A stretch of DNA of 64,000 nt from Raillietiella orientalis (Eukaryota), in NCBI GenBank assembly GCA_036172245.1, contig JAYWIR010000005.1:3534001-3598000 (forward strand). The letters are read 5' to 3'. Position numbers and translations under genes: made by a program. Below the pieces are notes generated by a model. The model did no database searches and was not told the origin of the DNA. It saw nothing but the letters and a program-made list of their open reading frames with translations. Shown piece by piece: positions 3,979-58,940 of this stretch. Every line of letters begins with the position of its first letter. The first letter of the stretch is position 1.

Positions 3979-4184
3979 TTGCCACCCGGACACGCCGGGG
4001 CGTTTATTTCAAATTCTCTTTGGTTCGTGGTACGAGGCCCTACTACGGCCAACTCAACTGGACCTGCCGGGTCGCCGGTACGCAGACCGGCGCGACTCTC
4101 CTCGGCAGCGGAAGGGGGTGGGGGAAAAAACAAAAAGAAAAATAAAACATAAAAACAAAAAGATTTGGGAGGGTTGGGGAGGGA

Positions 4185-7100: not shown

Positions 7101-9700
7101 CAACCGGAAATGGTCAGACAGCTCCGACGCAACTTTCCCCCGTTTGCCGACCCGTGAATACAGATCGACATCCAGAAAGACGTGGTCGATGCTGCTGACC
7201 ATTTCCGAAAGATCCCCTAACAAGTTGCGCGTGCGCATGGCGGCGCACAACTCGTTAGCCGTCCGTTCCTGTGCGTGTGGCTCAGCTGACAGTAGGCGGA
7301 GATTAAAGTCTCCCGCTATCAGGTGAGCCACGCGCACGTTCGCTTCCGCCAGCCAGTCGCGCTTCAGGGTTTCCAGGAACGCCTTACGTTCCTGGTACCT
7401 GGTAGGACCGCTCGGAGCGTACACATTTGTTACGACGAGGTCGATCGTGTCGGACCACCTGAGAATCAGCTGGCCGACACGACCGGCTTCGTCAAAGCGC
7501 ACGCCCTTCACGGCTGCGTCGACTGCCGGCGTCATAAAAAACGCGACGCCGCAGGTGTATCGGGTGCCGCATTGCCACATCAGGCATCAGGCAGGGCGAC
7601 AGCTTAAGCCCCTTGCTCTTCAGCATCTTCTTTGAGTTGGTGCTGAGGGCAAACAGGCTGACGCTGGCCAACCTGCCGAGCTCTTGTCCAGGAACGCCGT
7701 CCGTGGCGGCCTATGCTGACGACCTGCTTCTCCTCTTACCCATGACCACCCCGGCATCCAGTCTCGAGGATTTCTTCGAGCTGATTCGCCGGGGAGCGGG
7801 CATGAGCGTAAACCGGAGCAAGAGCGTGGTCGTACCTATTGGTGCGGCGTGGGAGGGGCAGTCCGACTGGATCCGCCTGGGGATCCCGACCGCTTCCTCC
7901 GTGCAATATCTGGGCGTTCCGCTGGGGAACATCAGCCCAATGGAAGTGTGGTCGGACTGCCTTCGGAAGGCTTCGAATGCCCTGAGCCCGTTCCACCATG
8001 GCAGGTTCGTCCTGCCGGAGCGCGCCACGATATGGAAAACCTTCGTTGCCCCTCTCTTGCGCCCCCTGCTTTTTGTTTGCCCTCCCCCCTACTCGGCCAA
8101 GCTCCAGGCGCACAGCCTGTTGAGGAACGCTCTGTGGGGACCTGCGAGGTCCAGGATCCGCCTCAAAGACTTGGCGGCTCCGCGTCGGGATGCTGGCTTA
8201 GGCATCCTGACGCTGGAGAGAATCGAGCTGCAGGTGCAGCTTCGGATGTTGGCCCTGTGCGCCAACCTTTGGTCCACTCCGTGGTGCGCTCCCGCGCGCC
8301 TGCTTCTGCAGCGCTGCACAGGCAGCGATGGACTTCTGTCGCTGCGGCCGCACACGGAGCGCGCCACGAGAAGCTTCGGTTTCCCCTTGAAACCGCTGTA
8401 TCGGCTCCTGGAAGCCCAGGGATGGATCTCCTGCCGCCCAACGAACTTTAAAGCCTGGCGGCAGGAACCGTTGCATGGCTGGGCAAAGCACCAGGATGTT
8501 TCCCTCCTGGAACTCCGTTGCGCTCACCTCTCCCCGTACTGCACGGTGGATGAGGTGTGCAACAGCCAGGAGAAGTGGACCCGCCTGGCCGTCACCCCCC
8601 TCGAAGACGCACTGTCAGCCCTCAGGGCAAGAGATGACAGTTGCGAACCGGCGAGATGGGAGGTCGCCTGCACCATCGCAGGAACAACGCGACCTATTGG
8701 CGGCTGGAAGACTTGCGAGCTGGCGGACGCCGCCACGCCTCGCCACGTTCCGAAGGGACTCCTTCGGTGGAGCGAACACTTGAGTGTGCCCCTTGAAGAA
8801 CTTGTGGTTCCTCCCTCGTGTCTGAACACTTCTGTGTTCCCCCTTTCGTGGAAGCAGGACGTGATTATGCTGGTGCATTGGGGTTTTCACTCCAACCAGC
8901 GCACGGACCTTGTTTCCGGGGGAGTCGTCTCCCCAAACTGTAAGCGGTGCGGGGAAGTGGAAACGCTCCCGCACCTGCTCCTGGACTGCGGTGCCCTTCT
9001 AGGACTCTGGCGGAGGCTGGCCTCAGCTCTCCTGCACCAGGGGGACACCGCGAGGGATTTGATGCTCCGCTTCTTCACGCCAGGCGGCCTGTCATTGGGT
9101 GCTGTTGTTGCAACCGTGTGTTGCACCCGCGCCATCGACAAGGCCCACCGAGAGTTGGAGAAGCTGGCCATCCTTCGTCAGCCCACCGGATTAGCCAGCG
9201 CAAACATGTCGTCGGCTGCCCAGTGGGCCCATCTGCCACAGGGCGTGAGGAGAGAGATCGCCGGCATCCATCGCCGGTTCTGAAAGGAAGGAACGGCTGA
9301 ACCAAAGACCCCTGTCCCCTGCCCTCCATATCTTTATTTTTATTTTTTCTATACGGTGTATTTGTGGTCCCCTCCCTCCCGTTCCGGACTTTCGGCATAC
9401 CGACCTGCGTGTCGGGGATCCCACCCCCTTCGTCTCTTGTTTTCCCCTTTGTCCGGGAACCCTGTTCCCGGATAGTTTATAATAAACGCCCCGGCGCACC
9501 CGGGTGACAATCAACCGTCCCCCTGCGATCCTTTCGATCTCCTGGGCGTTCTCCGCGGTGATCACGTGGATCTCCTGCAGGAGTGCCAGGTCGGAGTCAC
9601 GCAGGGTGGCGGCCGTGTCCCGTCTGTTGCCGTCGTCGCGCAGCCCGTTCACGTTCCAACAGGCCACGCGTAATCGACGGCGACAGGCGAGCCCAGGTGT
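4185..9700 (-). pseudogene. B1 ORF2 (APE + RT + Cys/His finger), interrupted by C1 and frameshifted
   Basis: CWNVNG...LQEIH...GGRL|MWQCG...GDFN...SDH; KAPGEDG, WRPITIVNTDAK, DLHKAFD, QGDSLSP, YTDD; CIRCGE. Confidence 0.9.
7583..9510 (+). mobile_element. 5'-truncated element C1 (RT 3' half, open to 9283), antisense inside the B1 endonuclease
   Basis: Starts at GIRQGDSL; YADD; CKRCGEVETLPH; terminus AATAAACGCCCCGGCGCACCCGGGTGACAA; B1 sequence joins across it with only 3-4 bp duplicated. Confidence 0.92.
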
Positions 9701-11721: not shown

Positions 11722-14174
11722 TGGACACCGCAGATGCTCCACACACAAACACAAAAGAAACCAAACGCTTTAAACCAGGCGCGGAGGAGCGCTACAAAAA
11801 CACGTCCGCACGCCAAGTTGATAGCCAAGATGTGAGCAGAGCGTCTGGGACGGGTTGCCAACATCTTCATCCGCCCGAAACAGACATATGCTGTTCCCGG
11901 GCGAAGCATGGAGACGAACCTGTTGTACGCTTCCACCTGGCTAGAGCTCCAACATGAAAGGAGCTTGCTGCGCAGCCGGAATTCTGGTGCGTGCGCCGGC
12001 AAGGGGTTGGACGGTCGGGTGGGGGAGGGAGCTTTTGTGGTCGCAATCGACTTGCGAAAAGCATTCGATTGCGTCGACCAGAATTTCCTTCTGGAGCTTC
12101 TGGAACGCTTGGGCTTCCCGACCTCATTAGTAACCTATCTGCGCTCCTGCTGGCGCGACGCGCTCATGCATGTTACTTTCAGCGGGCAGACCGTGCACAA
12201 CGTGCCGGTGCGGCGTGGGAACCGGCAGGGAGACAGCCTGAGCCCCTTGCTCTTCAGTACCTACTTTGAGTTGGTACTGAGAGCGTATAGGGGAATTATG
12301 GCGCACCTGCCGCACGACTGTGCCGGTACGCCGGCCGTTTCAGCATACGCGGACGACCTTCTGCTGCTGCTCCCTATGTCCACCTTGGCTGCGGCGGTCG
12401 AGTAGTTCATTGACCTGCTGCATTGGGGAACCGGACTTACGGTGAACAGGGCGAAGCCGTCCGTGATGCCAGTTGGTACGGCGTGGGCAGGGCAGCTGGA
12501 CTGGGTCCGTTTGGGGATCCCCACGGTAAGGTACCTCAAGTACCTTGATGTACCGTTGGGGGACTACTCCCCTGCGGAAGCGTGGTCCGGCTGCCTTCAA
12601 AAAGTAGAGACGGCGATCGGCCCGTTCCGAGGCGGCAGGTTTTTCCTGCCTGAACGGGCCACGGTTTGGAACACTTTCGCGGCTTCTCTTCTCCGCTTCC
12701 TGCTTTTTACTTGCCTTCCCACAGAGAGAATTAAAAAGCGGACAAAGGACGACCTCCGTATCGGCCTTTGGGGCAACGGGAGGGCCCGATTCCGCTTAAA
12801 GGACTTGTGCGCTCCTCGTCGGGATTGTGGTCTGTGCCTCCTGACGCTGGAGCGGCTGGAGCTTCAGCTCCAGTTCCGCTTGTCGGCACTCGTTCCAGAG
12901 TTGTGGTGCACCTGTTGGTGCGTCCCTGCACGTCTCCTCCTTCAGCAAACCACCGGCAACACGGGACTGACGTCGTTTCTTTCACTCCGTCGCCGCGTCA
13001 ACCGAAGCGGACTCCAGCTACGGAGGGAGGCTGCGCTGTATCGCAAAAACCCAGGATTGCTCACCAGTCGGCCTTTGAACGGTGGTGCCTGGTGGCAGAA
13101 AACCGTTCGAAAGTGGAAACAGTTCGGCATGCAACGCTCCCAACAGGAACGAAGGTTCCTGTTTGGTAGTTACAGAAGTTGCACGCTCCGCGTGATCCTT
13201 AAGGATCCAAAGAAGAGAGCGTGGGCAGGAAGAACCCCCCTTGCTGCTGCGCTGCTCTCCCTGAGGAAGATCTGGACAGCGACGTTGCGGCGAAGTGGGA
13301 GGTTTGAGTTACAATCTCTGGAAAGGAGAAGAAGATAGGAAAGTGGAAGACGGGCCAGTTAACTGACGCTGGGTCCCCGAGTACGCCTCCCAATGGACTT
13401 CTGCGCTGGGGCGCGCTGCTCGATGTTCCTATTGAAGATCTGAAGTGGCCCCCGGTGCTCATTAAAACTTCCGCCCTTATCTTAAAATGGCAGGAGTCGG
13501 CTCTCCTGTTGCAGCACTGAAGACTCCCTTGCAACATTCGCCGACACCACTGGACCTGGGGAGCGGTGGACCCCAATTGCGTCAGGTGTGGGGAACGGGA
13601 GTCCCACCCCTAGTTTCTAGTGGATTGTGTTGTCCTTCGGTCCTTTTGGTTTCGCTTTGCCGCCGCCATCGGAATCCCCTGCGGCAACCCCAGGGACGCA
13701 CTGAAATCCCTCTTCGTTGCCGACGCCCTTCGGCCAGCGGCCTCGTTAGCAGCTTTGTGCTGCCTACGCGGGATCTTCACCGCTTGGAGCAAGGCTACGG
13801 GCGGACCACACGAACAGGGTGCCACTCAGCCTGCTTCCCAGTTCCTCAGGAGGGCGTCGCGATGGCCCCACCCTGATCCAAGCATGCAGCAAGAGCTTGC
13901 CGTCATCCTGCAAAGGATGGAACGGCCCCACCAGCAACTGTGATACCTTCCCTTACCATCCCAACTTTTCTTTTCTTTTTTGTTTTGTTTTTTGTTTTTT
14001 CCCCCTTTCCCCTGCTGCCGTGGTGGAGCGCACCGGTCTGCGAATCGGTGACCCGGCAGGCTCTGTGTTAGTTCGTGCGTGGCTGGAGCAATGGTCCAGA
14101 AACTCCACGTCTTTGTAAATGTTTTTTTTACGATAGACGCTTCGACGAAATCCGGGTAAAAATCAAACGCCTAG

Positions 14175-17100
14175 CGTGCTCCAGGGTGGACGCGTTTTCT
14201 CGGTGCTCCTCGTGCCAGGAAGTCTCCCCCAGTGCAAGCGTAGTGTGGTTCGGTGGTCGATCAGGCAGCGATGCCTGACGCGACCACCAGGGATGGCCAG
14301 GGGGCAGCGGAAACGCCGCCCCCAGAGGCGATGGAGAGCCAGGGGGCGGCGGCAACGTCACCCTTAGAAGCGATGGAGGTGGGGGCATCCGCCTTCACGG
14401 AATCGGTCCCCGCTGCAGCGCGGGCGTGGAGCGCCGTTGTGTCGGCGCCATCGCCTGCAGCCGCGGCGGAATTGTCGGCCTATGTGGAGGAGGGGTACAA
14501 CCCCTCATTGTTCTACAAGGTAGGCAATTTATATTCTTTAGAGAGCGCGCGCGCCTTCTCGAAGGACATGCGCGCTCTCGATGTGAAAGAGCAGGAGCTC
14601 AGCGCTATGACCATCCGCAGCGGGGTCTGTACGTTGAGGTCATCTGCAAACAAGCAGAGCTGGCCCAACGACTGCTTAAAACCCCCGTGGTGATGGGGAC
14701 GCGCAGGCTCCTCCCTACTACGGCGGACCGCAGCATGGTGGTCCACCTGTTAAGTGTTACCGTGCGGATGCGCAAGGAACAGGTTCGCGCCGGGTTGGAA
14801 GAATACGGAACGGTCCATGAGCACTGGACAACAGTTAGTCCTTTCGAGGACTACACGAGGCTGCAACACGGCCTCACTGCTGCGCGCGTGACCGTTCGGG
14901 AGGGCTGCACTCTTCCCCACAAACTGGTGGTCGAAGGCGAAACCGTCGACCTGTGGTATGTGGGGAAGCCGAAAGACTGTTTCTTCTGCAATACGTCGGG
15001 CTACCTCAAAAAGAGATGTCCTAATGTGCAGTGCCAAGTATGCGGAACCATGGGTCACACGAGGGAGGTGTGCCGTAAAGCAGCAGTGCGGCTGGTTCCC
15101 AAGAGAAACCTTAAAAACCGTGCCGGCTTCTGCAGAAAAGGCTGACTGCGAAAGCTGCCGCGAAGGCTGTGCCACCCGCGCCCAAGGCCCAGGCCGCACC
15201 CGAGACCCCGGCGAACAACGCCGAAAAAGTCAAGGGAACAAGCCAGGAGCCTGGGTGGCAGGTGGCTACTGCCAAAAAATGAAAGAAGAGGAGGATGGAG
15301 AAAAACCTCGCGTACCGCCAGAAATACAGCAGGCAAGCGAGCAAATTAAACAATGCAGCGTTGTTGTCGAGCGTATTCCCGACCGCTGCGTAAAAGAACT
15401 CGCCGCTACCGACGACAATCCCTCTGTTGACTCAGTCAACAGCGAGGGGAGCGAGCCGGCGGCGGCGTCCGTCATCGACACCAGCATCGATGACGTAGCC
15501 TTCGCGCGAGCCGCGGAGGAGCTGGCAGCCTCGTTGCAGCCAGAACCCTCCAAGGCTGGCAAAAAGGCCGTAAGGCGTCCGGACTCCCCTCAGGAGTCCC
15601 TCAATTCCGACCCCGAGGTGGAGGCCGGAAGCGCAGCCTCAGTTTCCACGGCACCGCGCAAGAAGGCTGGACGTAAGTCCACAAAGCCAAGGAAGCTCGT
15701 CTCCCCCGTCGAAGGGGAAGAGATGGCTTCCGCAAGCGAGGGTGCCATGAGCGTGGGAAACTCTCGGGACCCGTCGCCCGAGAAACTCCCACGCGCAGAC
15801 ACGGAGGGGATGGAGGGGGTGGAGGCCGAACAGGTGCCTCAGGTGCCTGAGAAGGCCGAAACCCCCATGGACATCCCGCCTGCCTCGCAAGAGGAGGGCT
15901 CCCCCACACCTTAATCTTCCCAGCAGTAATGCCGGGAATCTCCTCCCGCCGTCGTCTGCGCATCGCCGTTTGGAACGTGAACGGCATGACAGACGCCGGC
16001 AGGAGACGAGACATGGCCGCCCTTCTGGAGTCCAAGGACCTTACGCTGCTGCAGGAGATCCACGTGATCTCAGCAAAACAAGCGCAAGAGATTTCTTACC
16101 CGGTCACGCCGGGGCGTTTCTTCCATATAACGTAACCAAAAAATGCAATTATACAAAATAAACCAGTTGTGTACCAAACTCCCAACTGACGACTGAACAA
16201 GAATGAAGAGAATATTGCTGGCACGCAGGCCAAAGTAGCAGTTTTGTGAACGGTGTGGGGGTGGCGGGGAACACAAAGAAACCAAATTAAAATAAAAACA
16301 ATGAATAAGGGCGACGGGGTAAAGGTCTTTGGGATCGCTCTGGAAGAAACGGGGATAAAAGCATGGGCACGGGAAATTTTACCGAGCGAACGGGGACGGG
16401 GTATGGGTGGGCGAGAGGTCGCAGGGGTCACCGGATTGTGCCGGTCTCAAAGGTGTGTAAACCGGCGATGTATGCCGGTGATGTCCTCATTCACCTTGTC
16501 ACAAACATGAGACCACCTTGAAGCCTTCTCCATGAATTGAGCTGCAAGCAGGTGAGCCTATGTTCGCTGCGCTGACAACTCCTGGGCGTAGCGGGCCTTC
16601 ACGATGGCGCGAACGCAACACATGGTTGCGGCAATCGCGCCAACCGAAAGTCCATTTCTGCTGAAGAAGCGTTGCAGCACATCAATGGCAGTGCCTTCTT
16701 GTGGCATGATGGCCTAAGTGAGCTTTCGCCACAGTTCCCGGAGGTCACCGCAGTCCAGCAAAAGGTGCGGAAAAGACTCCATCTCTCCGCACCTTAAACA
16801 GTTTGGCAAAGCGGCTGCCCCGGAAACGATTCTTCGCTGCCTATTACAGTGTAATGTACGATGTAAAAAGAGCAGCACATCTTGTTTCCACTTAAGGGGG
16901 AACACGGAGCTGTCCAAACTAACGGGGGGAACCACTATGTCTCCAAGGGGCACACTTAAATGTTCGCTTCACCGAAGCAGGCCCTTCGCCCGATTCCGAG
17001 GTAAGGCGGCTTGCACCAGCTCCTTTGTCGTCCAGTTGCCGAGGAGCTTACTGACTCCCGGTATTTTGCAGGAGAACTCCCATTCCGCCGGTAGGAAACC

Positions 17101-22600: not shown

Positions 22601-23393
22601 GGCATTTATCCAAACAATGCCCCTCCTTCTTGCATTGCTCGCACGTTCTTACTTTGCCCACGAACCACAGGTGAACGACCGTGTCTTTCACCTGTAGTTT
22701 GGTGGGCAGCAGACGGCGGTCCGGCATTGTAAGCCGGACTCCAGCGACTCCGCTTTGTGTGGACGGGAAGTCCTTGATGTTTCTATGCACCCTCCACAGC
22801 GCATCGACCGTGGCGAATTTCGCCAACGTGTTCCGAATATCAATATACAAGATTTCCGACTCGATGTGGAAAATCTCCGCCACAAATGAGTCGTCCATGG
22901 CGGCCGGGAAGACCTTCTGGCCACGGATCGACAACCGGGTGCGCAGCAAGCGTTGCCCAAGTGCAGCGTTTTTGCAAAGCACCTTGAAATAGCCCATATC
23001 CTTTACGGGCATAATGGCGAGGAGGTCCTCCTCCCGCACGCCAACACGGGTCAGTTCATCGTTGAACTGATTCCCGTCGCGCGCGAAAAGAAAACCACTC
23101 ACCTTATATCGGAGAGCAGGTATATTGCCTTGGGCTACGTATGCCCGCAACTCCGACTCGTCGAGTGGTTTACCTTTCACGGCTGCTGTGGCGGCAACGT
23201 CAGCAAAACTTCTCTCCATTGGCGAGAAAGACGAAGTGAAGGCGGCCGCCGGTTCCGCGATAGCAGATCCGGATGCTGTTCCTCCAGCTTCAGTAGCTTC
23301 GGGTTGAGTCGACATCGCCGTAAAAATGTACGACGCCAAGATGGAGCGGATGAAAGCACGGAGAGGAGAGTGAAGAAAAACACGTCCGCACTC
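19676..23393 (-). mobile_element. Element D1 5' half (ORF1 23315-21392; ORF2 from 21392 to the RT DxxKxFD motif, where A2 interrupts it)
   Basis: 5' GAGTGCGGACGTG; CEQCKKEGHCLDKC and CRYCRLSGHQLKYC; TAATG junction; APE motifs; AVDLLKVFD. Confidence 0.92.
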
Positions 23394-25693: not shown

Positions 25694-25891
25694 GCCTAGG
25701 AAGGGGCTGGCTGCAACGAAACTGCCAGCTTCTCCGCTGCTCGCGCGAAGGCTACGTCATCGATGGTGGTGTCGATGACGGACGCCGCCGCCGGCTCGCT
25801 CCCCTCGCTGTTGACAGAGTCAGCAGAGAAGAGGTCGTCGGTAGCAACGAGTTCTTTTTCGCAGCTGTCGGGAATACACTCGACGACAACG
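25694..25891 (-). mobile_element. Family A ORF1 fragment (A2-like subtype), bounded by the F1 and G insertions
   Basis: VVVECIPDSCEKELVATDD...SEGSEPAAASVIDTTIDDVAFARAAE matches A ORF1. Confidence 0.85.
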
Positions 25892-27660
25892 GCCGCACGG
25901 ACGTGTTCTGTGTTGCCCCACGAGCGTGATTCCTTGCCGTATTTATGTGTGTGGTGTGCCCGAGTGCGTCCACTGGGATGTCCACGGAGCCCCTGCAGCA
26001 AACGATGAATGTGGAGGCCGCTACTGGCAGTAAAGACTCTACTCCAGATGTCCGGTCCGCCTCTGATTCTTGTGTCTCGCCACCGGCGAGAAGCTTCGCC
26101 ACCGTCGTCAAGGCGGCGGCAGCCAACGGAGCACCGCCCGACGAAGCGGAGCTGCAGGCATATGCAGCTTATGGCTACAAGCCTGCGCTGTGCTATCCGA
26201 TGAGTGCTGCGAAATCCGACGGGGTCGGAGAAAACCTTTGGGATGAGCTTTTGCTCGTCCGGGTCCGACAGGACGACCTGCTGGCCGTCATGCCGGTTAA
26301 CGCGCTCGGACACTGGGAGGTGCACTGCAAAGAAGCATCCCTAGTCCAGCGCCTTCTCCGATCCCCGCTAAATGTCCACGGGAAGGAGGTCGTCCCGTCG
26401 GCCATGGACCAGTCGTTCGTGGTCCGATTGTCCGCCGTCCAGGTGAACACGCCCGATCGCGTGCTCGTCGCTGCACTTACTGCAATCGCCACGGTGCACG
26501 CGCTGTGGAGAGCAGACAATCCGATCAAAAGGATTGCATCTCTCCACAGCGGACTTTCCATGGCGCGTGTCACCATAGCGGATAGGAGGCAAATGCCTCC
26601 GCACTTGCAGGTGGGCGATGCGATCGTCCACCTTAAATTTGCCGTTCAGCGACCGGCTTGCGGCATTTGCGGTGCAGAGGGCCACCGTCCGTGTACGTGC
26701 CCTTCACGCAACTGCCGCTATTGTAAACAGCTCGGCCACTCCATCAAAGAGTGCGCCAAGCTGAAGAGAAAGCGGCAGGCGAAAAGCCGTCAACAATCGA
26801 CCCCGTCCGCGCCGAAAAGATCTTCCGTTGTGCCACAGATGAAATCGGGCGCGAAGATGGGGCATCTTCGAGTGGCGGTCCCGCGAAAAAGGGCACGGTT
26901 GCTTCAGGGAAGCCACCATCCCAGACAGCCGCGCAGACGGGAAAGATGCCACGTCGCCCTGGGGGCAAATCTCCCCCTCCGAAGCAGCCTATGAGTGCGG
27001 GTACGCACTCAATCAAGGTTGCTGAACCGTCGGCGTCCATTTCCGCGTGCAGCGGAACACACGGGAAACGTGCGCGGGCACTCTCGTAGCTGCTTGTGAA
27101 CGGCAGTCTCCTCCTACGGCGGTGGAGATCACGTCTTCCACGCCGAAGGCACGAGCAGCGAAGGCTGCAATAGCGCCTCGCGGGACGACGGCAATGACCG
27201 CCGTTTCGCCCGCATCGGCTAAGGAGCAGGTGCAGTGCGTAACGGGGACGGAGCCGTCTCCCGGCGCGAGCGCGAAACGTGAGCCGGCATCTCCGGTCAA
27301 ACAATTGAGGGAGGCGTCGGCCTCCCAGGAGGGCGTCCCCGACGCGGGCTGGACTCGCGTCTCCAGGACGCCCACATAGGGGAAGAAGAAGGTTCACCCT
27401 TGAATATTCCCCATCCTTAAGGTGGGTGGGAGGCAAAAGAGAAGCACGCCGAAGAAGGTGCGTACCGAGGTACGCACTACGGCGGCGTGCTCTGTCGCCG
27501 TCGCTCCGCGCGAGAGGGCGGCTGCGGAAGCCAAAGCTCCGGAAGCTGCGTTGGCGAATGCGACGATCCCCGCGCGGGCAGGGCAAGCCTCCACCTGCCG
27601 AAACAAAAAGAGACTCGCAAAACGCCAGTCTCGCGCCAGGAACGCAGTCCGGGCACACTG
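25892..27660 (+). mobile_element. Element G 5' end and ORF1 (ATG 25978), 3'-truncated and frameshifted
   Basis: 5' GGACGTGTT at 25899; CGICGAEGHRPCTC and CRYCKQLGHSIKEC; homologous to D and H ORF1. Confidence 0.85.
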
Positions 27661-30398: not shown

Positions 30399-30534
30399 TT
30401 TCCCCAAGTCCCACAAGGGGTGGGTTAAGTTTATTTTTTTCTATAAAAATACAATATTTACATTCGCACTCCCATTCACTCAATACAAACATTTTGCACT
30501 TGGGGGTTCTTGGGTTGCACTAGAGTTCTGCTTT

Positions 30535-33500: not shown

Positions 33501-34052
33501 GCTTGCTGTTCGCCAGACCAGTCCGAACTCGTCGGATAGCCGTCGATACGCCGTCCTTCCTCTGGCGTCTTCTGAATGTATGATCTCATCCAAGATGTTG
33601 AGATCGCCAGCAACAATCACGACGTCCTTAGGGGTGACCTTTTGCCGGAGTGCTGCATGCAGCGCCTCCGCACAACGATGTTTTAGCCTGTGCGGCTCGT
33701 ACACGTTCACCAGGATAAGGTGAACAGTTGCGGACCAGGCCAGTCGCACGCCGATGATTCGTCCGGGTTGGGGACAGAACACTTCCAGAATAGTGGGGGC
33801 TAAGTGGTTCTTTATTAGCACCGCCACACCCTTCGTGTTCCGTTCTCCTTCGTTGACGAACATCTGCCCGTTGAATCGCCGTTCTATTCGCTGGCTTATC
33901 TCGAGACCCATCCTGGGGGTCTCCTGCAGGCACACGATGTCTTGTTGTGCGATGGTCCGCACAATCCTTCTTCTTTTTCCCTGGTCGACCACAGTGTTTA
34001 CGTTCCAGGAGGCGATGTTCAGCCTCCTGGCGGTCGATAGGGAAGAGGTCAT
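30535..34052 (-). pseudogene. J ORF2 (APE + RT + Cys/His finger), with frameshifts near 33400 and 31810 and further stops
   Basis: Consecutive ORF-track segments 33390..34157, 31813..33405, 31330..31791, 30964..31236 and 30535..30963. Confidence 0.88.
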
Positions 34053-34065
34053 AAAAGGGGAAGAC

Positions 34066-35826: not shown

Positions 35827-35895
35827 CCTGGCAGCCGCTTCTTTGAGGCCCTCTTCGCGGAAGGCGAGGAGCAGGAGCAGCGTGGTTTGAATAAT

Positions 35896-38534: not shown

Positions 38535-41240
38535 TTCTCATTCGGTTTCGCGGGTTATTCTTTTGAATAAAAGGAGAACCAGTGGCTTTACTGGTGGTCC
38601 ATCCACGCACAAGTAAACAGCACTAAGCCTACCGCGTCACCGGTTCGCACTCCAGTAGGTTCCACCACGGTAAAAGAGAGGGCTGGCAAAAACAAAATGA
38701 TATAAGAAAACATAAAAAAAAACATGAAACCTACTTCTGGAGGACACGGGAACGGATTACAGTCTCTGTGGGGCCTTTACATCCCCTCTAGAATGACAGC
38801 AAGCTGCTCTTTGATTAGGCTAACCAAATGTGTCCATCTTGTCGCCGTGCTCATGAATTCGGCTCTGCATTGGACGACAAGGTTATCGCGTTGTTCTGCC
38901 GTTGCCTTGCTCCAAGCAGCGACGATACCTCGAAAGCAGCACATAGCTGCTAACAAGGTCGCAGGCCGAAGGGCGTTGCAAATGAAGAGGAACCTAACTG
39001 CGTCTCTGGGATTGCCACAGTGGATTGCGATTGACGCGGAGGAGCGGTTCCAAAGGGGCCGAAGCGCAACGCAATCCATAAGGAGGGAAACCCGTTCTCC
39101 ACACCTCACACAATAAGAGTTCACCGCTCCCCAGATTCAGTGGTGCCAGCAGGAGATGCAAGGGAGTCCCCAAAGCAGCAACAGTAATGCCGACCCCTGC
39201 TATTCTAATGGGAGGGTGGGAGTGGTTCATCAGCACAAGGGACCACTTCAGTTGCTCCGGCGAAACTTCCAGCAGCTCGCTGCAGCTCAAAAGTCCAATA
39301 GTAGTGGTAATCCGGGCCTCAGTATCACATAGAAAACCCGTTTTCCTTTTCTTGATCTGTTTCTCCGTGCCGAAGACTTGAGCGACCACTTTCCATCACG
39401 CCGTAGTGTTGCTGTAAAGATGATGCAAGTGGGAAGACAATATTGCAGCGAGGAGGGTTTTCCTTGCCCATGCTTGTTTTTTGGGGATCTCCAGGTTCTC
39501 CCGTAACGTTAAGTGGTCGTTACGTGCAAACAATTGCCTGCGATCTATTTATGTGCGTTGTTCGTTGCTCTTCGCCCAAATGTAAACAGTTTTCTGCAGT
39601 CATGCAGATCCATTAACGGGGCGAGAGAAGAGCCATCCCGCGATCATTCTCATCAATTCGGCCATTCTCCAAAGCTGCAAAGCGCAGTGGGCGACTTGGC
39701 AGCGACGATAGAGCCTAAGGTAGGATGACAGTTCCACCTTGCCGGTGGCCTGTTTGACGAGGAGACGTGCCAGCTCGCAAGAGATGTTGCTATAATACTT
39801 CGTCACTAGTGCGAGTAATGGGAACTGTAGCTGGCTCTCCAGCCGCTTCATCGTCCGGAGGCCGAGAACGCCCTCTCTATGCGGAGCACTCAAGTGTACA
39901 ATCTGAACTCGGACCATACTCCTACCCCACTGGGCAATTTAGAGGAAGTCCTTCGTCCGCATTTTTCTCTCTGTAGTGGAAGAACAAAGAAAAGGTAGGC
40001 AACTCAAAAGAAGGACCGCCAACGCGTTCAACACCGCGGCCCTTTCCGGCAGGAAAAACCTGCGGCCTTGGAACGGGTCGATTGCCTTCTCTACCTCCTG
40101 AAGGTATCTGGAAAACGCATCCGAAGAGAGATAATTCCCCATCGGTACAACAAAGTACTTGAAGATCCGAACAGTGGTGATCCCCAAACGGACCCAGTCC
40201 TGTTGCAATGCCACGTCACACCAACTGGCATCAAGGATAACTTTGCCCGTTCAACATAAGCCCAGTTCCCAGACTCAGAAGGTCGAAGCAATCCTCGATC
40301 GCTGATGCTAAGTTGAACATAGGGATCAGTAACAGTAGGTAGTCCGCGAATGCTGACATCGCAGGCGAACCGCCATAGTTGAGGAAGGTACCCCAAAGTT
40401 TCTCTGTTCGCTCACCGTACCAATTCAATGTAGGTTCTGAACAGCAAGGGGCTTAGGCTGTCTCACTGCCGTATCCCACGCCGCACCGGCACGCCGTGCG
40501 CAGTCTGCCCGCTGAAAGAAAGGTTCATCAACGCGTCGCGCCAGCTGGAGCGCAGATAGGCCACTAACGAAGACGGGAAGCCCAAGCGTTCCAGGAGTTC
40601 CAGCAAGAGATTCTGGTCGACGCTGTCTAATGCTTTGCGCAAGTCGAGAGGGACCGCAGAAGATCCTTCCCCCACCCGACCATCATAACTCCAAGCGACG
40701 GACGCACCGGAATACCGGTTACTCAATAAGCCCATTCCTTGTTGGAGCTCTAACCAGGTGGAAGCGTGGATCAGGTTCGCCTTCCATGCTTAGCTAGGGA
40801 AGAGCATATGTCTGTTCCGAGCTGATGAAGGCGTTTGCAACGCGTAACAAGCGTTCAGCTTAAACCTTAGCTCTCACCTTAGCATCCGGATTCACTATTG
40901 TGATGGGATGCCAGTTTCACATGCTCCTCTGATCTCGTTCCTTCGGGAGCCGCAACTTAGCCAAGAAAAACGAAGCGGGAACGTCACCTGTCTCGCGTAT
41001 CAGGAAGGTGAGATGATGTACCAGGGGTGTAAGCTCAGTAACGAAAGTTTGATAAAACTCCTCGGACAGGCCGTCCTCTTATGGAGCCTTGCTCCTGTTG
41101 AGCTTCCCAATGGCCGAGATGATCCCGCCCATCGTGAAAGGCTCGTCGAAGGACTTCTTGTCCTCCTCCATGATAGCTGGAGCGCATTTCAAAATAAGAG
41201 TTGTGAGATATCCCTCTAGGGAGATGCTGCCGCGTGCGGG
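38535..41240 (-). mobile_element. Old degenerate A-like ORF2 3' half with a decayed 3'UTR (O)
   Basis: DLRKALDSVDQNLLLELL, VRRGIRQ, FADYLLL, CVRCGER; decayed terminus ...CCGAATGAGAA. Confidence 0.8.
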
Positions 41241-48200: not shown

Positions 48201-51113
48201 GGCAGTCCGGAGCAGCATGCCTGTTGGACGACAAGGGCCAGGAATGTTCGGCCCCAGCCGAAGTACGCCGCATTGTGAGACGCTACTACTCCTCGCTCTA
48301 CGCGGAATCCCCGACGGAGGATATGCTTTCTGAGATACTCCTGTCTCAGGATGCTCGTGTTGTCGGCGAGGAGGAACGCGAACGTCTCGACGAGCCCTTC
48401 ACGGCGGATGAATTTTCGTCCGCCATCGCTGGGCTGAAGAGACGAAAGCCGCCAGGCGAGGATGGGCTGCCTGCAGAGTTTTATCAGTGCTTTGCAGTGG
48501 AGCTCATTCCCTTGATGCTTAAACTCGCGACGCTGATGAGTGAATCCGGGAATGTCCCTGATTCCTTCCGCTCAGCGAAGGTGCGTCTCCTGCCGAAAGG
48601 CGGAGACTTGCGCCAACTTAACAACTGGCGTCCGATCACCTTGGTGAACTCGGACGTCAAGTTGTTTTCCAAGCTGTGGGTCGCGCGTTCAGGAAGAATC
48701 GCGGAATCTGTGGTGAGCCCGGAACAATCCTACGCGGTTCCGGGACGATCCATGGAGGCGAACATCCTTTTCGCGCGTACATGGATGCAGCTGCAGGAAG
48801 TTGTGGCGCAGCAAAGCCAGGCTGCTGCGAAAGTCACTGCCGCAGGCAAAAAGAACAGGCGCCGACGGCAGGAGGGAACGCCAGGTGCCTTGGCGGTCGC
48901 GGTCGATCTCCACAAGGCGTTCGACTGCGTAAACCATAAGCTGCTTTTGGAGCTTATGGAACGCCTTGGGTTCCCGGCGCAACTCCTGCTGTATTTGCGC
49001 GCGTGCTGGCGCCACGCGCTAACCTGCATCACTTTTAGCGGCTGCCGCGTGTATGGTATTCCCGTTCGTAGGGGCATCCGACAGGGCGACAGCTTAAGCC
49101 CGTTGCTCGTCAGCATCTTCTTTGAGTTGGTGCTAAGAGCATACAGGCTGACGCTGTCTCACTTGCCAAGCTCCTGCCCGGGAACGCCTGCCGTGGCCGC
49201 CTACGCTGATGACCTGCTTCTTCTGCTCCCCATGTCCACCCCGGCGTCCAGTGTCGAGGATTTCTTCGACCTGATTCGTCGGGGAGCGGGCGTGAGCGTG
49301 AACAGAGAGAAGAGCGCGGTCGTTCCTGTGGGTACGTCGTGGGAGGGGCAGTCCGACTGGATCCGCCTGGGGATCCCCACGGGCGGGTACTTTAAGTACC
49401 TTGGCGTTCCGTTGGGCGCTTTCGGCGCAGCCGAAGCGTGGGCGGACTGTCTTCAGAAAGCAGAGTTGGCCATCAGCCCGTTCTTTAACGGCAAGTTTAC
49501 CTTGCAGGAACAGGCGACTATTTGGAACACCTTTGTGGCCCCCCTCCTCCGTCCCCTGTTTTTTGTTTTGGACCCCCCCTATGCGGCAAAACAGCGGGCT
49601 AAGCGCCTGCTCAGGAACGCTCTCTGGGGTCCGGCGAGATCCAGGATCCGCCTTAAAGATTTGTCAGCTCCGCGTCGGGATGCTGGTTTGGGTATCCTGA
49701 CAATGGAGCGAATCGGACTGCAGGTGCAGTTCCGACTGCTGGCACTGTGTGCCCAGCTATGGACATCCCCCCCGTGTGTGCCAGCTCGCATTCTCCTGCG
49801 AAGATGCGCCGGCAGCGGAGGATTTCTCTCGCTTTTGCCGGGCACTCAATACAGGAAGCGGGGTTTCGGTTTTCCATTGCGGCAGTTGACCGCACTTCTG
49901 TAAGCACACTCTTGGATCTCCTGCCGCCCAATGAACTTTGAAGCTTGGCGGCAGGAGTCTGTTGAATCCTGGGCGGCGTTCCAAGGAATACGCCCTGAAG
50001 ATCTTCGCCCCCTGCGCCAATTTTTTCTACGATCCTTGGAAGAAGTACTGCAGGACGAGGTGAAGTTTTCTACCCTGGCTGGCACGCCTCTTGCCGCAGC
50101 GCTGTCTGCCCTCAGGGCAAGAAACGACAGTTACTAACCGGCGAGGTGGGTGGTTTCCTGCACGATAGCGGGAAGAACCAAACTCCTTGGCACCTGGAAG
50201 ACAAGTGAGTTGGCGGACGCCGCCACTCCTCGTGTTACTGCAAAGGGACTCCTCCGGTGGGCAGAAGAACTTGCTGTCACCCCCGAAGAACTTGTAGTCC
50301 CTCCACAGTTTATGGACAGTTCGCTGCTCCCCCTTGCTTGGAAACAAGCCGTGCTGCTTTTCGTTCACTGGGGTTTTCAGTGCAACGAGCGTTGGCATCG
50401 TGACTCCGGGGGACTTGCGTCTGCGAACTGCGTTCGGTGCGGATCGACGGAGTCGATTCCGCACCTACTTCTGGACTGCGGTGTCCTACAAGGACTGTGG
50501 CGTAGGCTGGCAACAGCACTATTGCATCCCGTGGACACCGCAAGAGACTTTCTGCGACGATTCTTCACGCCGAGCGGGCTTTCACTAAGCGCAAGGATTG
50601 CAACCATCGGTTGCATACGCGCGATTGTTTCCGTCCGCCAGGCGTTGGTAGTCAACGGACAGCACCAAGAGTTAATCAGCAAATTATCCTTCTACATGAG
50701 AGCATCCGCTAGATGGCCTCATTTGACAGAGGAGACAAAGAGGAATCTCGCCGCAATACACCGCCGGTTTACACACGCTGAGCAGCGGCCAACACGGTGA
50801 TCATTGCCCTACCCTCCATAAACTAAATTTGTATTTTCTTTTTACACCCGCGTCCCCATAGGCTCCGGAACATTTTAGGTGCTCATCGTATAAATCCCCG
50901 TGAGTACGGAGCCTAACCAAAAACCCGTTACCCTTCCCTCCAGTTTTTGATTTTTGTTTGTTTCCCCTCATTCTGCCCACGCTGCGAGCGGTTTGTTTAC
51001 CAGGCCTGCGTGCCGGTAATTTTTCTATGTTCTCTGTCGTTCTCTTGGTTGGGGACATTGTCCCTGACCAGTTTATTATTATTAATAAACGCCATGGCGT
51101 GACCGGGTGATAA
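45207..51113 (+). mobile_element. Full-length uninterrupted element D2, sense inside the F2 GDFN motif
   Basis: TSD ATTTCAATC (45198-45206 / 51114-51122); ORF1 45285-47207 with two in-frame stops; terminus CCGGGTGATAA. Confidence 0.95.
47207..50800 (+). pseudogene. D2 ORF2 (~1197 codons; APE + RT + Cys/His finger), with only two in-frame stops (49901, 50135)
   Basis: ORFs 47207..49903, 49931..50137 and 50150..50800 share one frame. Confidence 0.93.
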
Positions 51114-54100: not shown

Positions 54101-56314
54101 TAACGAAGGAGTGGGTCCACACGCGAGGGATGTCGTCCCATACGCCCAACGCTTCATGCGGAGAGCTGCCGGATGGCCCCAACTGGGGAATATACGGACG
54201 GACCTCAAGGGCTTCCTTCAACGGATGGGCCCTCCTCACAGCGTTCAGTGATCCCTTCCCTGCCCTCCAACTTCTTTTCGTCTGTTTATGTTTTTTATTT
54301 TTCTTTTTGTTTTATCCCCATCCCCCTTCGCTGCTGAGGAACGCTACGCTGGGCTGCGTCCCGGCGTCCCGGCAGGTCCAGTGCATATGACCGTGAGCGG
54401 GGCCTTGTACCGCGGATGTAGAGTTGTTTTTTTTTAAAAAATAAACGCCCCGGGCGTACCCGGGTGTAAACCTCCAAGGCTGGCAAGAAGGCCGTAAGGC
54501 GTCCGGCCTTTCCTCAGGAGTCCCCCACTTCCGACCCCGAGGTGGAGGCCGGAAGCGCAGCCTCCGTTTCCACGGCACCGCGCAAGAAGGCTGGACGTAA
54601 GTCCACAAAGCCAAGGAAGCTCGTCTCCCCCGTCGAAGGGGAAGAGAAGGCTTCCGCAAGCGAGGGTGCCATGAGCGTGGGAAACTCTCGGGACCCGTCG
54701 CCCGAGAGACTCCCACCCGCGGACACGGAGGGGATGGAGGGGGTGGAGGCCAAACAGGTGCCTCAGGTGCCTGAGAAGGCCGAAACTCCCATGGACATCC
54801 CGCCCGCCTCGCAAGAGGAGGGCTCCCCCACACCTCAATCTTCCCAGCAGTAATGCCGGGAATCTCCTCCCGCCGTCGTCTGCGCATCGCCGTTTGGAAC
54901 GTGAACGGCATGACAGACGCCGGCAGGAGACGAGACATATCCGCCCTTCTGGAGTCCTACGACCTTGCGCTGCTGCAGGAGATCCACGTGATCTCTGCAG
55001 AACAAGCGCAAGAGATCGAACGGATCTGCAGAAAGCAGCTATGGTACAGGTGTGGGAGAACGAAAAGTTGCGGTGTCGCCTACCTGCTTCGGCCAGCCGT
55101 CGAGGCCGCGGCTCGGGGCGTGCGGTTCGACGATCACGGTCGTGTCGGCCAGCTGACTCTCAGGTGGTCCGACTCGATCGATCTGATCGTCACGAACGTG
55201 TACGCTCCGAGCGGCAAGGACCTGATGAACAGGAGGGCGAGGAAAGAGTTTTTCCTTGCCCTCCGGCGAGACTGGCTGACCGGAGCAGGCGTGCGGAATG
55301 CCCATCTGGTTGCAGGCGATTTCAACGTTCGCCTGAAACCAGATGGGCAGAATCCCGAGCGAGACCTGGTCAACGAGGTGTGCATGGCCGTGCACACCTG
55401 TAATTTGTTGGCCAGTGCACCGGGGATGGAAGACAGCATTGACCACGTGTTTCTTGACGAGCACCTGTGCCCTCGCGTGGGCAGGCGCGGCAAGTTACCG
55501 TGCGAGCTGTCCGACCATCGCCCGCTAGTCCTCGAGATCCATCCGCGCGACAGTGGCCCCCCCTCGTCAGCGTGGCGTCTCCCAGGGGACTGGCTGAAGC
55601 TCCCGGACGCGGCGGAACATCTTCGCACGTTCATACGGAGCTTCAGGCTGCGGACACTCCAGGATTGGGACCGCTTCAAGCGGTCAGTCCTGGAGTTTTG
55701 CGACCAGTTCCCTCTGCACCGCCTACCTACGGGTTTTGGGACCGGGGTCCGTAACGAACGAGCCTACCTGTAGGCCCGTCGTTACGCCAGGACCCCCGAC
55801 ATCCGCAGGCTGGCGGAATATAAAGCGGGAGCCGAGAGGCAATCCTGGCAGTCCCGATCGGCCAGCTTACTGGACGATCAGGGCCAGGAGCACTCGGCAC
55901 CTGCCCAAATCCGCGGCCTGCTGCGGAGTTACTACTCCTCCCTGTATGCCAGGGCACCTCCGGAGAGGAACGTCTCATGACTCCTGCTTCCGGAAGGCGC
56001 TTCAGCGATCGGGGAGGAGCAGAGAAAGACCCTCGACGAGCCTTTCACGATGGACGAGATCCTCTCGGCCATCGGAAAGCTCAAGAGGCCAAAAGCTCCA
56101 GGGGAGGACGGCCTGCCCGCGGAGTTTTATCAAACTTTCGCGACTGAGCTTACTTCCCTGGTACAGCAACTCACCTTGCTGATACGCGAAACAGGTGACG
56201 TTCCCGCCTCGTTTCCTTCGGCAAATGTGCGGCTCCTCCCTAAGGGAGGAGATCTGAGGAGCATGAACAACTGGCGTCCCTTCACAATAGTGAATGCGGA
56301 CGCCAAGTTGCTGG

Positions 56315-58919
56315 TTGCCACCCGGTCACGCCGGGGCGTTTATTAAAAATTCTCTCTGATTCGTGGTACGAGGCCCCACTACGGCCAACTCAGCTGGACC
56401 TGCCGGGTCGCCGGTACGCAGACCGGCGCGACTCTCCTCGGCAGCGGAAGGGGGTGGGGGAAAAAACAAAAAGAAAAATAAAACATAAAAACAAAAAGAT
56501 TTGGGAGGGTTGGCTAGGGATCACTGACCACTGGGAGGAGGGTTTATCCTTCGCAGGATGCCCTCGAGGTCCGTCCGTAAAATTCTCAGGTGGGGCCATC
56601 TGGTCACAATCCGCAGGTAGCGGACTGCAAGTACGACGGCATCCCTGTCGTGACTCGGTCATCCGACGTCGCTCCAGCACGTCACAATCCCGCGTACGCA
56701 GCAAAGTGCAGCCAGGGCAGCGGCTGGACGGAGGATATCATGCACGAACAGAAGCCGAAAAACGTCTCAGGGCTGGCTGCCCTCCTGGATCCGTAGGGAG
56801 GCACGAAGACGTTCGCACAGGGGTCGGAGGGCAGCACAATCAACAAGGAGGTGGGGGAGGGTTTCCCGTTCCCCACACCTGATGCAGGTAGGATCTACTC
56901 GACCCCTCGTCCAGTGGTGGCGGCGTGCGTTGCAGGGTAGACCCCAATGCAACAACAGAAGCGCCGACTCCTGCCACTTTACGGGGAGGATCCTAGAACC
57001 AATTAATACCAGGGGCCACTTCAGGTCATCCGGCTGGATGCCGAGTAGCTCACCCCATCTCTGGAGTCCTCTTGGCTGGACACTAGGGGTACTGGCGTCC
57101 GCCAGATCACCCGTGGACCAGCCGCTGATCAACTTCTCCTTGCCTGCGATGCGGCAGAAGACTTGCCACCTAGGCTTGCGGCTGCTGGAGAGCGCCCTCC
57201 TCAGGAAGGACATCGCCGTAGCTAGGGGGGTTGTCTCTGCCCACGTGCTTCTCGCGGGACACTGGAGTATCTTCCGCAGAGTGCAGCGGAAATAGGCGCC
57301 GCGTCGCAGGCAGTTCCACATCTCTCCGTTCTTCTGGTTTATCTTCGCCCACGTGCCAGCTGTCTCCTCCAGCCATGCGGAGGAGTTGGCGGGGCTGCAT
57401 ACCATCCAGCCGTTTTCCTTAGCCAGAGTTGCCATGCGTCCCAGGAGAAGTCCGCATCTCTTGATCTTCTTGCCACGGCACAGAAGATAAGACGCGAGAC
57501 CCTCCGTCCCGGATACACGGCTGGCAAGGAGTCAGGCCGGAACGCACCAAGGGGTGCTCCATAACTTCGCTGCGATGGCGAGGGTTCGCCACCGCAGCTG
57601 CTTGTCCACGCGCTCCAGCGTCAGGAGGCCAAGACCGCCGTCCCGACGCGGAGCGCACAAGTCCTTCAGTGGGACTCGGGGCCTCCATTTGCCCCAAAGG
57701 GCGATAAGGAGGAGGTCCTTCGTCCTCTTCTTGGATTCCACGGTGGGGGGCAAACAAAAAGCAAGGGGCGGAGGATGGGGGCCGCGAAGGCGTTCCAAAC
57801 CGCGGCCCGTTCCGGCAAGTGAAACTTGCCTTCCAGGAACGGGCCGATCGCCGTCTCGACTTTTTGGAGGCAGCTGGACCACGCTTCAGCAGGGGAGTAG
57901 TCCCCCAACGGCACACCAAGGTACTTGAAGCACCTCGCCGTGGGGATCCCCAGACGGACCCAGTCCTGCTGCCCTGCCCACGCCGCACCCATTGGCACAA
58001 CCGACGACTTCGCCCTGTTAACCTGCAGTCCGGTCCCGCGGCTGAGCAGATCGAAGAAGTCTCCGACCACCTTTGCCGGGGTGGACATTGGCAACAAGAG
58101 CAGAAGATCGTCGGCGTACGCTGCAACGGCGGGCGTGCCGGGGCACGAGCTCGGCAATGGGGCCAGAGTCACCCTGTACGCTCTCAGCACCAACTCAAAG
58201 TAGATGCTGAAGAGCAGGGGGCTGAGGCTATCTCCCTGCCTTATGCCCCGCCGCACCGCGACGCCATGCACCTTGTGACCGCTGAAAGAGACGGTAATTA
58301 TCGCATTCCGCCAGCAAGAGCGCAGGTAGGAAATCAGGGAGGGTGGAAAGCCCATGCGACCCAGGAGCTCCAAGAGGAGTTCCTGGTCTACACAGTCGAA
58401 CGCCTTGTGGAGATCGACTGCGAGCGCTAGAGCCCCCTTCCCCGCCCGGGGGTCCCTTCCCAGCCCGGCTGGCGGCCCCAATGTGGGGTTGCCGACTTTC
58501 CCTATCCCTTTCTTTTCTCTTCTCTGCAGGTGCACTCATGTGCTTGCGAAGAAGAGGTTGGCATCCATACTTCGCCCGGGAACAGCATAAGTCTGCTCCG
58601 GGCTAATTACGGATTCTGCCACCTGCCCCAGACGCGAAGCCCATAGCCCTGCGATCAACTTGGCGTCCGTATTCACGATCGTGATCGGACGCCAGTTCTT
58701 GAAATCCCTGAGGTCTCCCCCTTTCGGAAGGAGCCTCACTCTGGCTAACCGAAACGAGGCGGGAACATCGCCTTCGTCTCGGATCAGCCTGATCAACTTA
58801 AGCAGCAGGGGTGCCAGCTCTTCCGCGAAGCTCTGAAAGAACTCCGCGGGCAAGCCGTCTTCCCCTGGAGCTTTACGCCTCTTGAGCCTTTTGATACCTG
58901 CGAGAATTTCGCCGGTGGT
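56315..58919 (-). mobile_element. 5'-truncated element B2 (B-type 3' end, F-like RT), antisense inside the A3 RT
   Basis: Terminus CCGGGTGGCAA at the same NADAKL position as B1; RT motifs present. Confidence 0.88.
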
Positions 58920-58940
58920 CCAGCTAAGGTTCATCAGCTC

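What the first reader, a model, noticed from the sequence alone, without database searches (positions are those of the whole stretch)
14015..14059. Covarying 3'UTR stem-loop with a conserved CUGCG(U/A) hexaloop
Stems differ while the loop is kept: A CACCGGT/ATCGGTG (loop 14038) and TACCGGT/ACCGGTG (61628); B GCCGGT/ACCGGC (4080, 56416, minus strand); C CCGAC/GTCGG (9405); D TTACC-A-GGC/GCC-GGTAA (51006); F ACGCTGGG/CCCGGCGT (54354). A, B and F add an outer CTGCYG/CGGCAG stem. Known: stringent LINEs such as L2-clade UnaL2 recognise a 3' stem-loop. Inference: an ORF2p-binding element, and the shared loop may allow cross-mobilisation between families.
Basis: partly seen in the sequence, partly recalled or inferred. 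Interest (0 to 1): 0.7.

Follow-up and report, generated by a model that had tools for sequence, protein, structure and literature searches.

The report
Conserved hairpin in LINE 3' tails
A group of L1-like jumping genes keeps a small RNA hairpin in its tail whose stem changes in matched pairs while the first, second and fifth loop letters hardly change, probably a handle used when the element copies itself, a kind of signal already known from other jumping genes.

Summary
The hairpin is real at all seven cited sites, and three more copies lie in the window. It sits in the 3'UTR of a large, tail-less L1/Tx1-like LINE radiation, usually 105-137 nt before a fixed 3' end. Against a tree-aware null, the inner 6-bp helix ranks first of 820 diagonals, and 0 of 82,000 null diagonals reach it. 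The outer stem shows no covariation. The loop is not uniformly kept. C1 and G5 never change on internal branches and U2 changes once, but positions 3, 4 and 6 vary, and one subclade has other loops. This fits a pseudo-triloop with a C1-G5 cross-loop pair, as in HBV epsilon and foamy virus (inferred; no compensatory change seen). Binding by the element's own ORF2p is the likeliest role, but it is untested. Cross-mobilisation is not supported: A-type and C-type ends keep their own target motifs. No SINE was found. Shared loops at this protein distance are known in L2 LINEs. The scan reported this hairpin before on other DNA of this genome. New member of a known kind.

The parts
14015..14059 (+). 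Hairpin H1 of LINE copy A1: outer arms 14015-14020/14054-14059, asymmetric internal loop, inner helix 14032-14037/14044-14049
14038..14043 (+). Hexaloop CUGCGA; positions 1 and 5 can form a cross-loop C-G pair (pseudo-triloop, inferred)
13941..14014 (+). ORF2 stop codon (13941-13943), then C-rich, U-rich and C-rich tracts of the 3'UTR
14077..14110 (+). Second 3'UTR hairpin H2 (damaged in A1, intact in A2)
14132..14162 (+). Terminal module (decayed AATAAA, GC hairpin, five further bases): the element's 3' end, without a poly(A) tail
61605..61649 (+). H1 of copy A2 (loop 61628-61633); terminal module 61722-61752
4064..4108 (-). H1 of copy B1 (loop 4085->4080)
56400..56444 (-). H1 of copy B2 (loop 56421->56416)
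9400..9415 (+). H1 inner hairpin of copy C (no outer stem; not the minimum-energy fold)
50997..51019 (+). H1 inner hairpin of copy D, one bulged A
54331..54375 (+). H1 of copy F (G-C closing pair, loop 54354-54359)
16217..16234 (-).
27636..27653 (-).
38629..38673 (-). Decayed H1 of old copy I

Best explanation
H1 is a cis-acting RNA signal in the 3'UTR of a radiation of tail-less L1/Tx1-like LINEs. Shown: a 5-6 bp helix kept by compensatory changes, capped by a hexaloop whose C1, U2 and G5 are under selection, placed about 105-137 nt before a precisely fixed 3' end in a multi-hairpin tail. Inferred: C1 pairs with G5 across the loop (pseudo-triloop). The element's own ORF2p, probably through the basic linker between endonuclease and RT, binds this shared handle to load its RNA for target-primed reverse transcription. 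The terminal hairpin sets the start point. Mobilisation stays mostly family-faithful.
For: Covariation. On a plain MAFFT alignment of 44 lineage representatives the inner helix is 85% paired, the closing pair is UA21/CG11/AU1/GC1/UG1, and 0 of 500 shuffles reach the score. With a tree-aware null the inner helix ranks 1 of 820 diagonals; 0 of 82,000 null diagonals and 0 of 100 null alignments reach it (n=66 ascertained without the hairpin); the closing pair has E=0.03 over 1275 pairs at n=113. Depth. The loop is kept across lineages with 28-38% ORF2 C-terminal identity and 42-55% identity at 4-fold sites, against 29% random. Loop profile. Internal-branch changes are C1 0, U2 1.0, G5 0, against a flank mean of 7.5; the 1:5 pair is kept in 89 of 95 copies and in 17 of 19 copies whose middle triplet differs at 2 or more places. 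Ends are fixed and tail-less. One deletion removing H1 exists in a single copy. [quoted passage not shown]
Against: No binding or activity data. H1 is not adjacent to the 3' end, unlike the terminal hairpin. Single hairpins are not unusually stable (z -0.1 to -2.6), and in C the helix has a pairing probability of about 0.03. One well-supported subclade (0.995) and the k11 and k12 lineages carry other loops, k12 a 5-nt one. No compensatory double change was seen at 1:5, so pairing cannot be told from base-specific reading. By the NMR rules, an A bulge or a C-G closing pair prevents a stable pseudo-triloop in free RNA (PMC3884659), and most copies have U-A or C-G closing pairs.
Confidence: 0.55

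Rival explanations
1. H1 is bound by a host RNA-binding protein (3'-end processing at the nearby AAUAAA, export, stability or translation), which is why diverged families share one loop.
For: One loop is shared across 28-38% identical ORF2 C-termini while target sites stay family-specific. Pseudo-triloops are protein-binding motifs, and a common factor was suggested for the HBV and foamy virus loops (PMC3884659). The loop lies upstream of AAUAAA.
Against: Several lineages in the same genome changed the loop and still amplified. Loop sharing at similar RT distance is explained by ORF2p in L2 LINEs.
Confidence: 0.2
2. The loop is conserved because it docks within the tail's own tertiary fold (for example a pair between the last loop base and the first unpaired base after the outer stem), not because a protein reads it.
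For: That pair is Watson-Crick or wobble in 128 of 169 copies (AU75, UA28, GC15) and ranks second of all pairs on the ORF2 tree (E=1.4).
Against: It is not significant over all pairs and rests on few independent events. The six-pair pseudoknot extending it fails (2698 of 41,000 null diagonals reach it). The 5' side differs in the C/D/G clade.
Confidence: 0.12
3. The loop is a kissing-loop site that dimerises LINE RNAs through self-complementary UGCG.
For: An A-bulge variant of the foamy loop dimerises in vitro, possibly through UGCG/GCGU (PMC3884659). Two lineage loops changed positions 3-4 from GC to UA or AU, which keeps self-complementarity.
Against: A third double change (to UU) and the GA variants break it. 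There are few events, and LINE RNA dimerisation has no precedent that I know of (recalled, not searched).
Confidence: 0.05
4. Passive inheritance of a GC-rich palindrome, or a DNA-level feature, without RNA function.
For: Folding z-scores are modest. The G-U to A-C ratio in the five inner pairs is only 29:16.
Against: Tree-aware covariation; zero internal changes at loop C1 and G5 while neighbours change 7.5 times on average; neutral sites are only about half identical across the deep split.
Confidence: 0.05

Closest known systems
3'-tail stem-loops of stringent L2-clade LINEs (zebrafish ZfL2-1/ZfL2-2, eel UnaL2); Hayashi et al. 2014, PMC4176376 (parts 1-3 of 5 read)
   Same: A 3'UTR hairpin with an exchangeable stem and a constrained loop; almost the same stem-loop shared by LINEs of about 60% RT identity.
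   Different: Different clade. H1 lies about 105-137 nt inside the 3' end, with two further hairpins behind it. No terminal repeats. No partner SINE found. Binding untested.
Conserved 3'-end hairpin of the monocot-1a L1 lineage (LINE1-1_ZM, ZmSINE2/3); Ohshima 2012, PMC3472496 (part 1 of 3 read) and PMC3747384 (passages)
   Same: L1-clade LINEs; compensatory stem changes with conserved loop bases; function inferred, not assayed.
   Different: There the hairpin is within the last 45-50 nt and is shared with SINEs. Here it is internal, has a hexaloop, and the elements lack poly(A). The loop letters differ.
Pseudo-triloop hairpins: HBV epsilon apical loop (PMC1636360, passages) and human foamy virus 5' hairpin (PMC3884659, parts 1-3 of 4 read; figures not seen)
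   Same: Hexaloop with C1 and G5. HBV CUGUGC differs at two places. The foamy loop (C-G cross pair, UGC triloop, U bulge as I read the text) equals the commonest loop here. Epsilon is bound by a reverse transcriptase.
   Different: Those lie at 5' ends of viral RNAs with G-C closing pairs; here only family F has G-C. A six-base match is no evidence of homology. One sentence of the paper gives the bulge letters the other way round.
T-loop motif (YGNRA), bioRxiv 10.1101/2022.12.26.521914 (passages)
   Same: Loop positions 2-6 of the A variant match UGNRA.
   Different: Canonical T-loops start at loop position 1 with two 3' bulged bases. Here the extra base is 5', and position 6 is mostly U and the most variable.

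Membership tests
L1-clade (L1/Tx1) LINE | ORF2 with APE endonuclease, RT and C-terminal zinc domain; ORF1 with CCHC knuckles | tested here: met
   Pfam Exo_endo_phos, RVT_1, weak zf-RVT and zf-CCHC hits; best PDB match human L1 ORF2p, E=1.8e-43, against 7e-15 or weaker for the next RT group, which includes R2
L1-clade (L1/Tx1) LINE | Insertion by TPRT: target-site duplications and 5' truncation | tested here: met
   TSDs of 9-17 bp around 5'-truncated copies
L1-clade (L1/Tx1) LINE | Placement in L1 proper versus Tx1 by RT phylogeny with named references | not tested
   Named relatives were too few and distant (best named: Danio pol-like protein, 31%); no paper holds its accession
Stringent-type 3' stem-loop | Conserved hairpin in the 3'UTR with compensatory changes | tested here: met
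Stringent-type 3' stem-loop | Sequence-constrained loop | tested here: met
   positions 1, 2 and 5 only
Stringent-type 3' stem-loop | Position next to the 3' terminus where reverse transcription starts | tested here: not met
   Loop start lies 97-221 nt (median 118) from the end in 144 of 173 copies with a detectable end; another hairpin holds the terminal position
Stringent-type 3' stem-loop | Partner SINE sharing the tail | tested here: inconclusive
   None among 34 hits without upstream ORF2, from a sample of about 440 kb; not a genome-wide search
Stringent-type 3' stem-loop | Required for retrotransposition and bound by cognate ORF2p | not testable with these tools
   needs assays
Pseudo-triloop | Hexaloop with positions 1 and 5 able to pair | tested here: met
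   89 of 95 copies
Pseudo-triloop | Cross-loop pair shown by covariation or NMR | tested here: inconclusive
Pseudo-triloop | G-C closing pair and pyrimidine bulge (stable in free RNA) | tested here: not met
   G-C closing pair in 3 of 113 copies; family A has an A bulge. The paper notes that functional TAR, BMV and IRE loops also miss some of these criteria
T-loop | YGNRA at loop positions 1-5 with 3' bulged bases | tested here: not met
   Register shifted by one; last base U in 54 of 95
Any Rfam family or tRNA | Covariance-model or ARAGORN match | tested here: not met
   0 hits at gathering threshold in the window, 0 at E<=10 on 61480-61780, 0 tRNA

The most novel reading that the evidence does not exclude
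These LINEs use a pseudo-triloop of the same CUGYGY type as HBV epsilon and foamy viruses as a shared RNA handle, read by a conserved surface of the reverse transcriptase or by one host factor. It would act as a second, internal recognition element in a two-part, poly(A)-free initiation system: H1 loads the RNA and the terminal hairpin sets the start. That would be a convergent RNA motif across LINEs, hepadnaviruses and spumaviruses.
Probability: 0.12. Interest if true: 0.75.

Novelty: new member of a known kind. Interest (0 to 1): 0.42.

Why it matters
L1-clade elements are the textbook 'relaxed', poly(A)-reading LINEs, and stringent L1 relatives are few and known from sequence alone. This radiation has hundreds of copies and dozens of lineages, a tail-less end, and a hairpin whose constrained positions are now mapped base by base. 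It gives a ready set of natural variants for testing how an L1-type ORF2p selects its RNA without a poly(A) tail. The family-specific target motifs give a built-in readout of which ORF2p mobilised which RNA.

Tried and rejected
Outer stem as a covarying helix: pairable (6 of 6 pairs in 50 of 119 large-clade copies) but no signal above the tree null, even within that clade. Six-pair pseudoknot between the loop and the internal-loop strand: rejected. Long-range covariation with H2: no pair significant (best E=0.72). T-loop reading: wrong register. tRNA-like cloverleaf (a recalled resemblance): ARAGORN and Rfam negative. One search scanned a locus that lacks H1 and is uninformative. Amplified H1-less subfamily: the first pattern was mis-specified; the corrected one gave 4 hits, 1 the known copy and 3 unrelated DNA; only one deletion was tested. 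Relatives in other organisms: one unnamed 61-65% protein; 7 distant metagenome loci were not examined for the hairpin. Expression: no RNA holder listed. A tally of the loops listed was not made; loop counts come from stored loci. Literature: a search for pseudotriloop + retrotransposon + LINE listed no paper holding the first term with the others; searches listed nothing on this family. The library lacks most subscription papers and Repbase/Dfam. Supplements (such as Hayashi Fig. S3 and Ohshima Figs S7 and S10) were not read.

Full report
Observation. The window is a nest of LINE retrotransposons with CCHC-type ORF1 and APE-RT ORF2, closest among solved structures to human L1 ORF2p. Of 89 CTGCG[AT] sites on both strands, 7 have at least five contiguous flanking pairs, and all 7 lie behind an ORF2 stop. 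D and H have a bulged stem. A profile search adds copies G, H and I. The distant LINE at 31813-35925 has no such hairpin. In the 210-Mb genome a stem+loop 15-mer occurs 606 times against 1 control, a stem-only pattern 787 against 6, and a second stem variant 829 against 33. For that variant, 29 of 30 fetched loci show the same UTR context. I did not establish the organism.

Anatomy. After the stop codon come C-rich, U-rich and C-rich tracts, then H1, a second hairpin H2 of variable sequence, and a terminal module of AATAAA, a GC hairpin and five more bases, followed directly by the target duplication with no poly(A). The H1 loop starts 105-137 nt (10th-90th percentile) before the end in the 144 of 173 copies with a detectable end. 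In the large clade (A, B, E, F and others) H1 has an outer stem and an asymmetric internal loop. The C/D/G/H clade keeps only the inner hairpin.

Sample. To avoid selecting on the hairpin, I took ends by the terminal motif: 30 loci and 60 of the remaining 70 listed places (ten with the commonest terminal loop, mostly family C, were left out). The profile found no H1 in 7 of these 90 loci. Two of the seven have it on inspection, three are truncated below it, and two have a deletion. A further 80 loci were selected on stem or loop patterns and are used only in the 'all' sets.

Covariation. On a structure-blind alignment of 44 lineage representatives the inner helix is 85% paired, all six pairs show double changes, and 0 of 500 shuffles reach the score; that control ignores relatedness. 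I therefore built a tree from the ORF2 C-terminus and used a null that redistributes the reconstructed substitutions along it. Three rows were dropped (two with another element's ORF upstream, one with a loop deletion). In the 66 copies chosen without the hairpin, the inner helix ranks first of 820 six-pair diagonals; 0 of 82,000 null diagonals and 0 of 100 null alignments reach it. The same holds at n=113 and within the large clade alone. Single pairs are weaker: only the closing pair reaches E=0.03-0.05 over all 1275 pairs, and only at n=113; four of six pairs have p<0.05 as named pairs. With a tree from the UTR itself the helix ranks second of 820, still above all 41,000 null diagonals. The outer stem shows no covariation. 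This is my own implementation, not R-scape.

The loop. Families across the deep split share 28-38% of C-terminal residues, 56-69% in well-aligned RT-centred columns, and 42-55% of 4-fold sites, against 29% at random, so an unchanged loop is unlikely without selection. The constraint is uneven. Mean changes on internal branches (128 copies) are C1 0, U2 1.0, G3 3.6, C4 6.5, G5 0 and position 6 10.4, against 7.5 for the flanking unpaired strands; the stem's GG/CC core has 0-1. Exact CUGCG(U/A) is found in 57 of 95 unbiased copies. One subclade with support 0.995 and the k11 lineage have other middle triplets, and k12 has a 5-nt loop. Positions 1 and 5 remain able to pair in 89 of 95 copies, and in 17 of 19 copies whose triplet differs at two or more places. 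This is the pattern of a pseudo-triloop. In HBV epsilon, CUGUGC forms a C-G cross-loop pair and is proposed as an anchor for the viral RT (PMC1636360, passages). The foamy virus hairpin, with a UGC triloop and U bulge as I read the text, was confirmed by NMR (PMC3884659, parts 1-3 of 4; figures not seen). Against it: no compensatory change at 1:5 exists here, and that paper finds that an A bulge or a C-G closing pair removes the NMR signal. Most copies here have U-A or C-G closing pairs, though the authors note that functional TAR, BMV and IRE loops also miss some of these criteria.

Evidence against a strong standalone structure. Folding z-scores are -0.1 to -2.6. In C the helix has a predicted probability near 0.03, and in F 0.10-0.25. 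Covariation, not energy, carries the case.

Cross-mobilisation and SINEs. All 95 A-type ends begin their target within one mismatch of TCGA, 75 exactly. Of 100 listed ends with the commonest C-type terminal loop, 57 begin with ACA and 1 with TCGA (the pattern also catches minor families); both were counted by eye. These four bases could be set by RNA-DNA annealing rather than by the protein. The flank upstream of the duplication cannot be, and it is G in 6 of 6 fetched A copies with a duplication (one after a one-base shift), GG in 3 of 4 B-type and C in 5 of 7 C copies. So a shared loop has not led to visible exchange between these families. Of 34 hits lacking ORF2 upstream, most are short 5'-truncated LINE tails bounded by duplications, one is a chance hit inside ORF2, and none has a SINE head. 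One H1-removing deletion occurs in a single copy, which is weak evidence.

Mechanism. Most likely H1 is read by the element's own ORF2p when the RNP forms, while the terminal hairpin fixes the start of reverse transcription (inference, 0.55). In ZfL2, stems are exchangeable, loops are essential and the EN-RT linker binds them, and four L2 LINEs of about 60% RT identity share nearly the same stem-loop (PMC4176376, parts 1-3 of 5). The linker here is conserved and basic across A, B, D and F, which is compatible but no test. Rivals are a host factor (0.2), an intramolecular tertiary contact (0.12; one suggestive pair, E=1.4), kissing-loop dimerisation (0.05) and passive inheritance (0.05).

Comparison and verdict. 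Conserved, compensated 3' hairpins are described for L2 LINEs and for a monocot L1 lineage (PMC3472496, part 1 of 3; PMC3747384 and PMC5135761, passages). H1 differs in being internal, in a tail-less multi-hairpin end, with a pseudo-triloop-type loop and no known SINE. Because it fails the 'next to the terminus' feature, I say it works like a stringent-type tail element and do not file it as the UnaL2-type terminal stem-loop. Rfam and ARAGORN find nothing. Earlier notes of this scan report the same hairpin and the terminal module in other windows of this genome; they are not independent support. Added here are the tree-aware test, the per-position profile with its pseudo-triloop reading, and the target-site argument against cross-mobilisation. 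New member of a known kind; interest 0.42.

Noticed in passing
window 14132-14162, 61722-61752, 9481-9510, 51084-51113, 54440-54470; 1272 genome matches: All related LINEs end in AATAAA, a GC hairpin and five bases (mostly GNNAA) with no poly(A); the terminal loop differs between families. Noted before by the scan.
   Followed up: partly
window ~739, 14163, 19676, ~41530, 61753: Family A inserts antisense at the KAFD-coding motif of other LINEs' RT with 11-bp duplications, including a tandem insertion at 14163; more than half of 95 A ends genome-wide continue TCGAAC.
   Followed up: partly
window 55840-56312 and 58940-59412: Copy B2 is flanked by a 473-bp direct duplication (95.6%) of its host, instead of the 15-bp duplication seen for B1.
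   Followed up: no
window B2 57669-58535(-) and F 52563-54248(+): B and F are 96% identical in aligned RT residues but 64-66% in the C-terminus, which may reflect recombination between families.
   Followed up: no
L169:1172 and 1265: Two H1 hairpins from different lineages lie in tandem, one element's UTR joined to another's at the U-rich tract.
   Followed up: no
L017, L021, L100 3'UTRs: Single copies with internal deletions across or within H1; in L017 and L100 they lie between short direct repeats, which could be template jumps over the hairpin.
   Followed up: partly
profile columns 35 and 57 (window 14021 and 14043): The first unpaired base after the outer stem and the last loop base are complementary in 128 of 169 copies, in three Watson-Crick types; not significant (E=1.4).
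   Followed up: yes
window 30300-35925 (-): A distant LINE (about 27-30% identity) lacks H1 and ends in AATAAA plus a different small hairpin.
   Followed up: no
window 19676-25874 and 42714-48924: A 6.2-kb inverted duplicate (94%) holding the same nested F-and-D arrangement.
   Followed up: no
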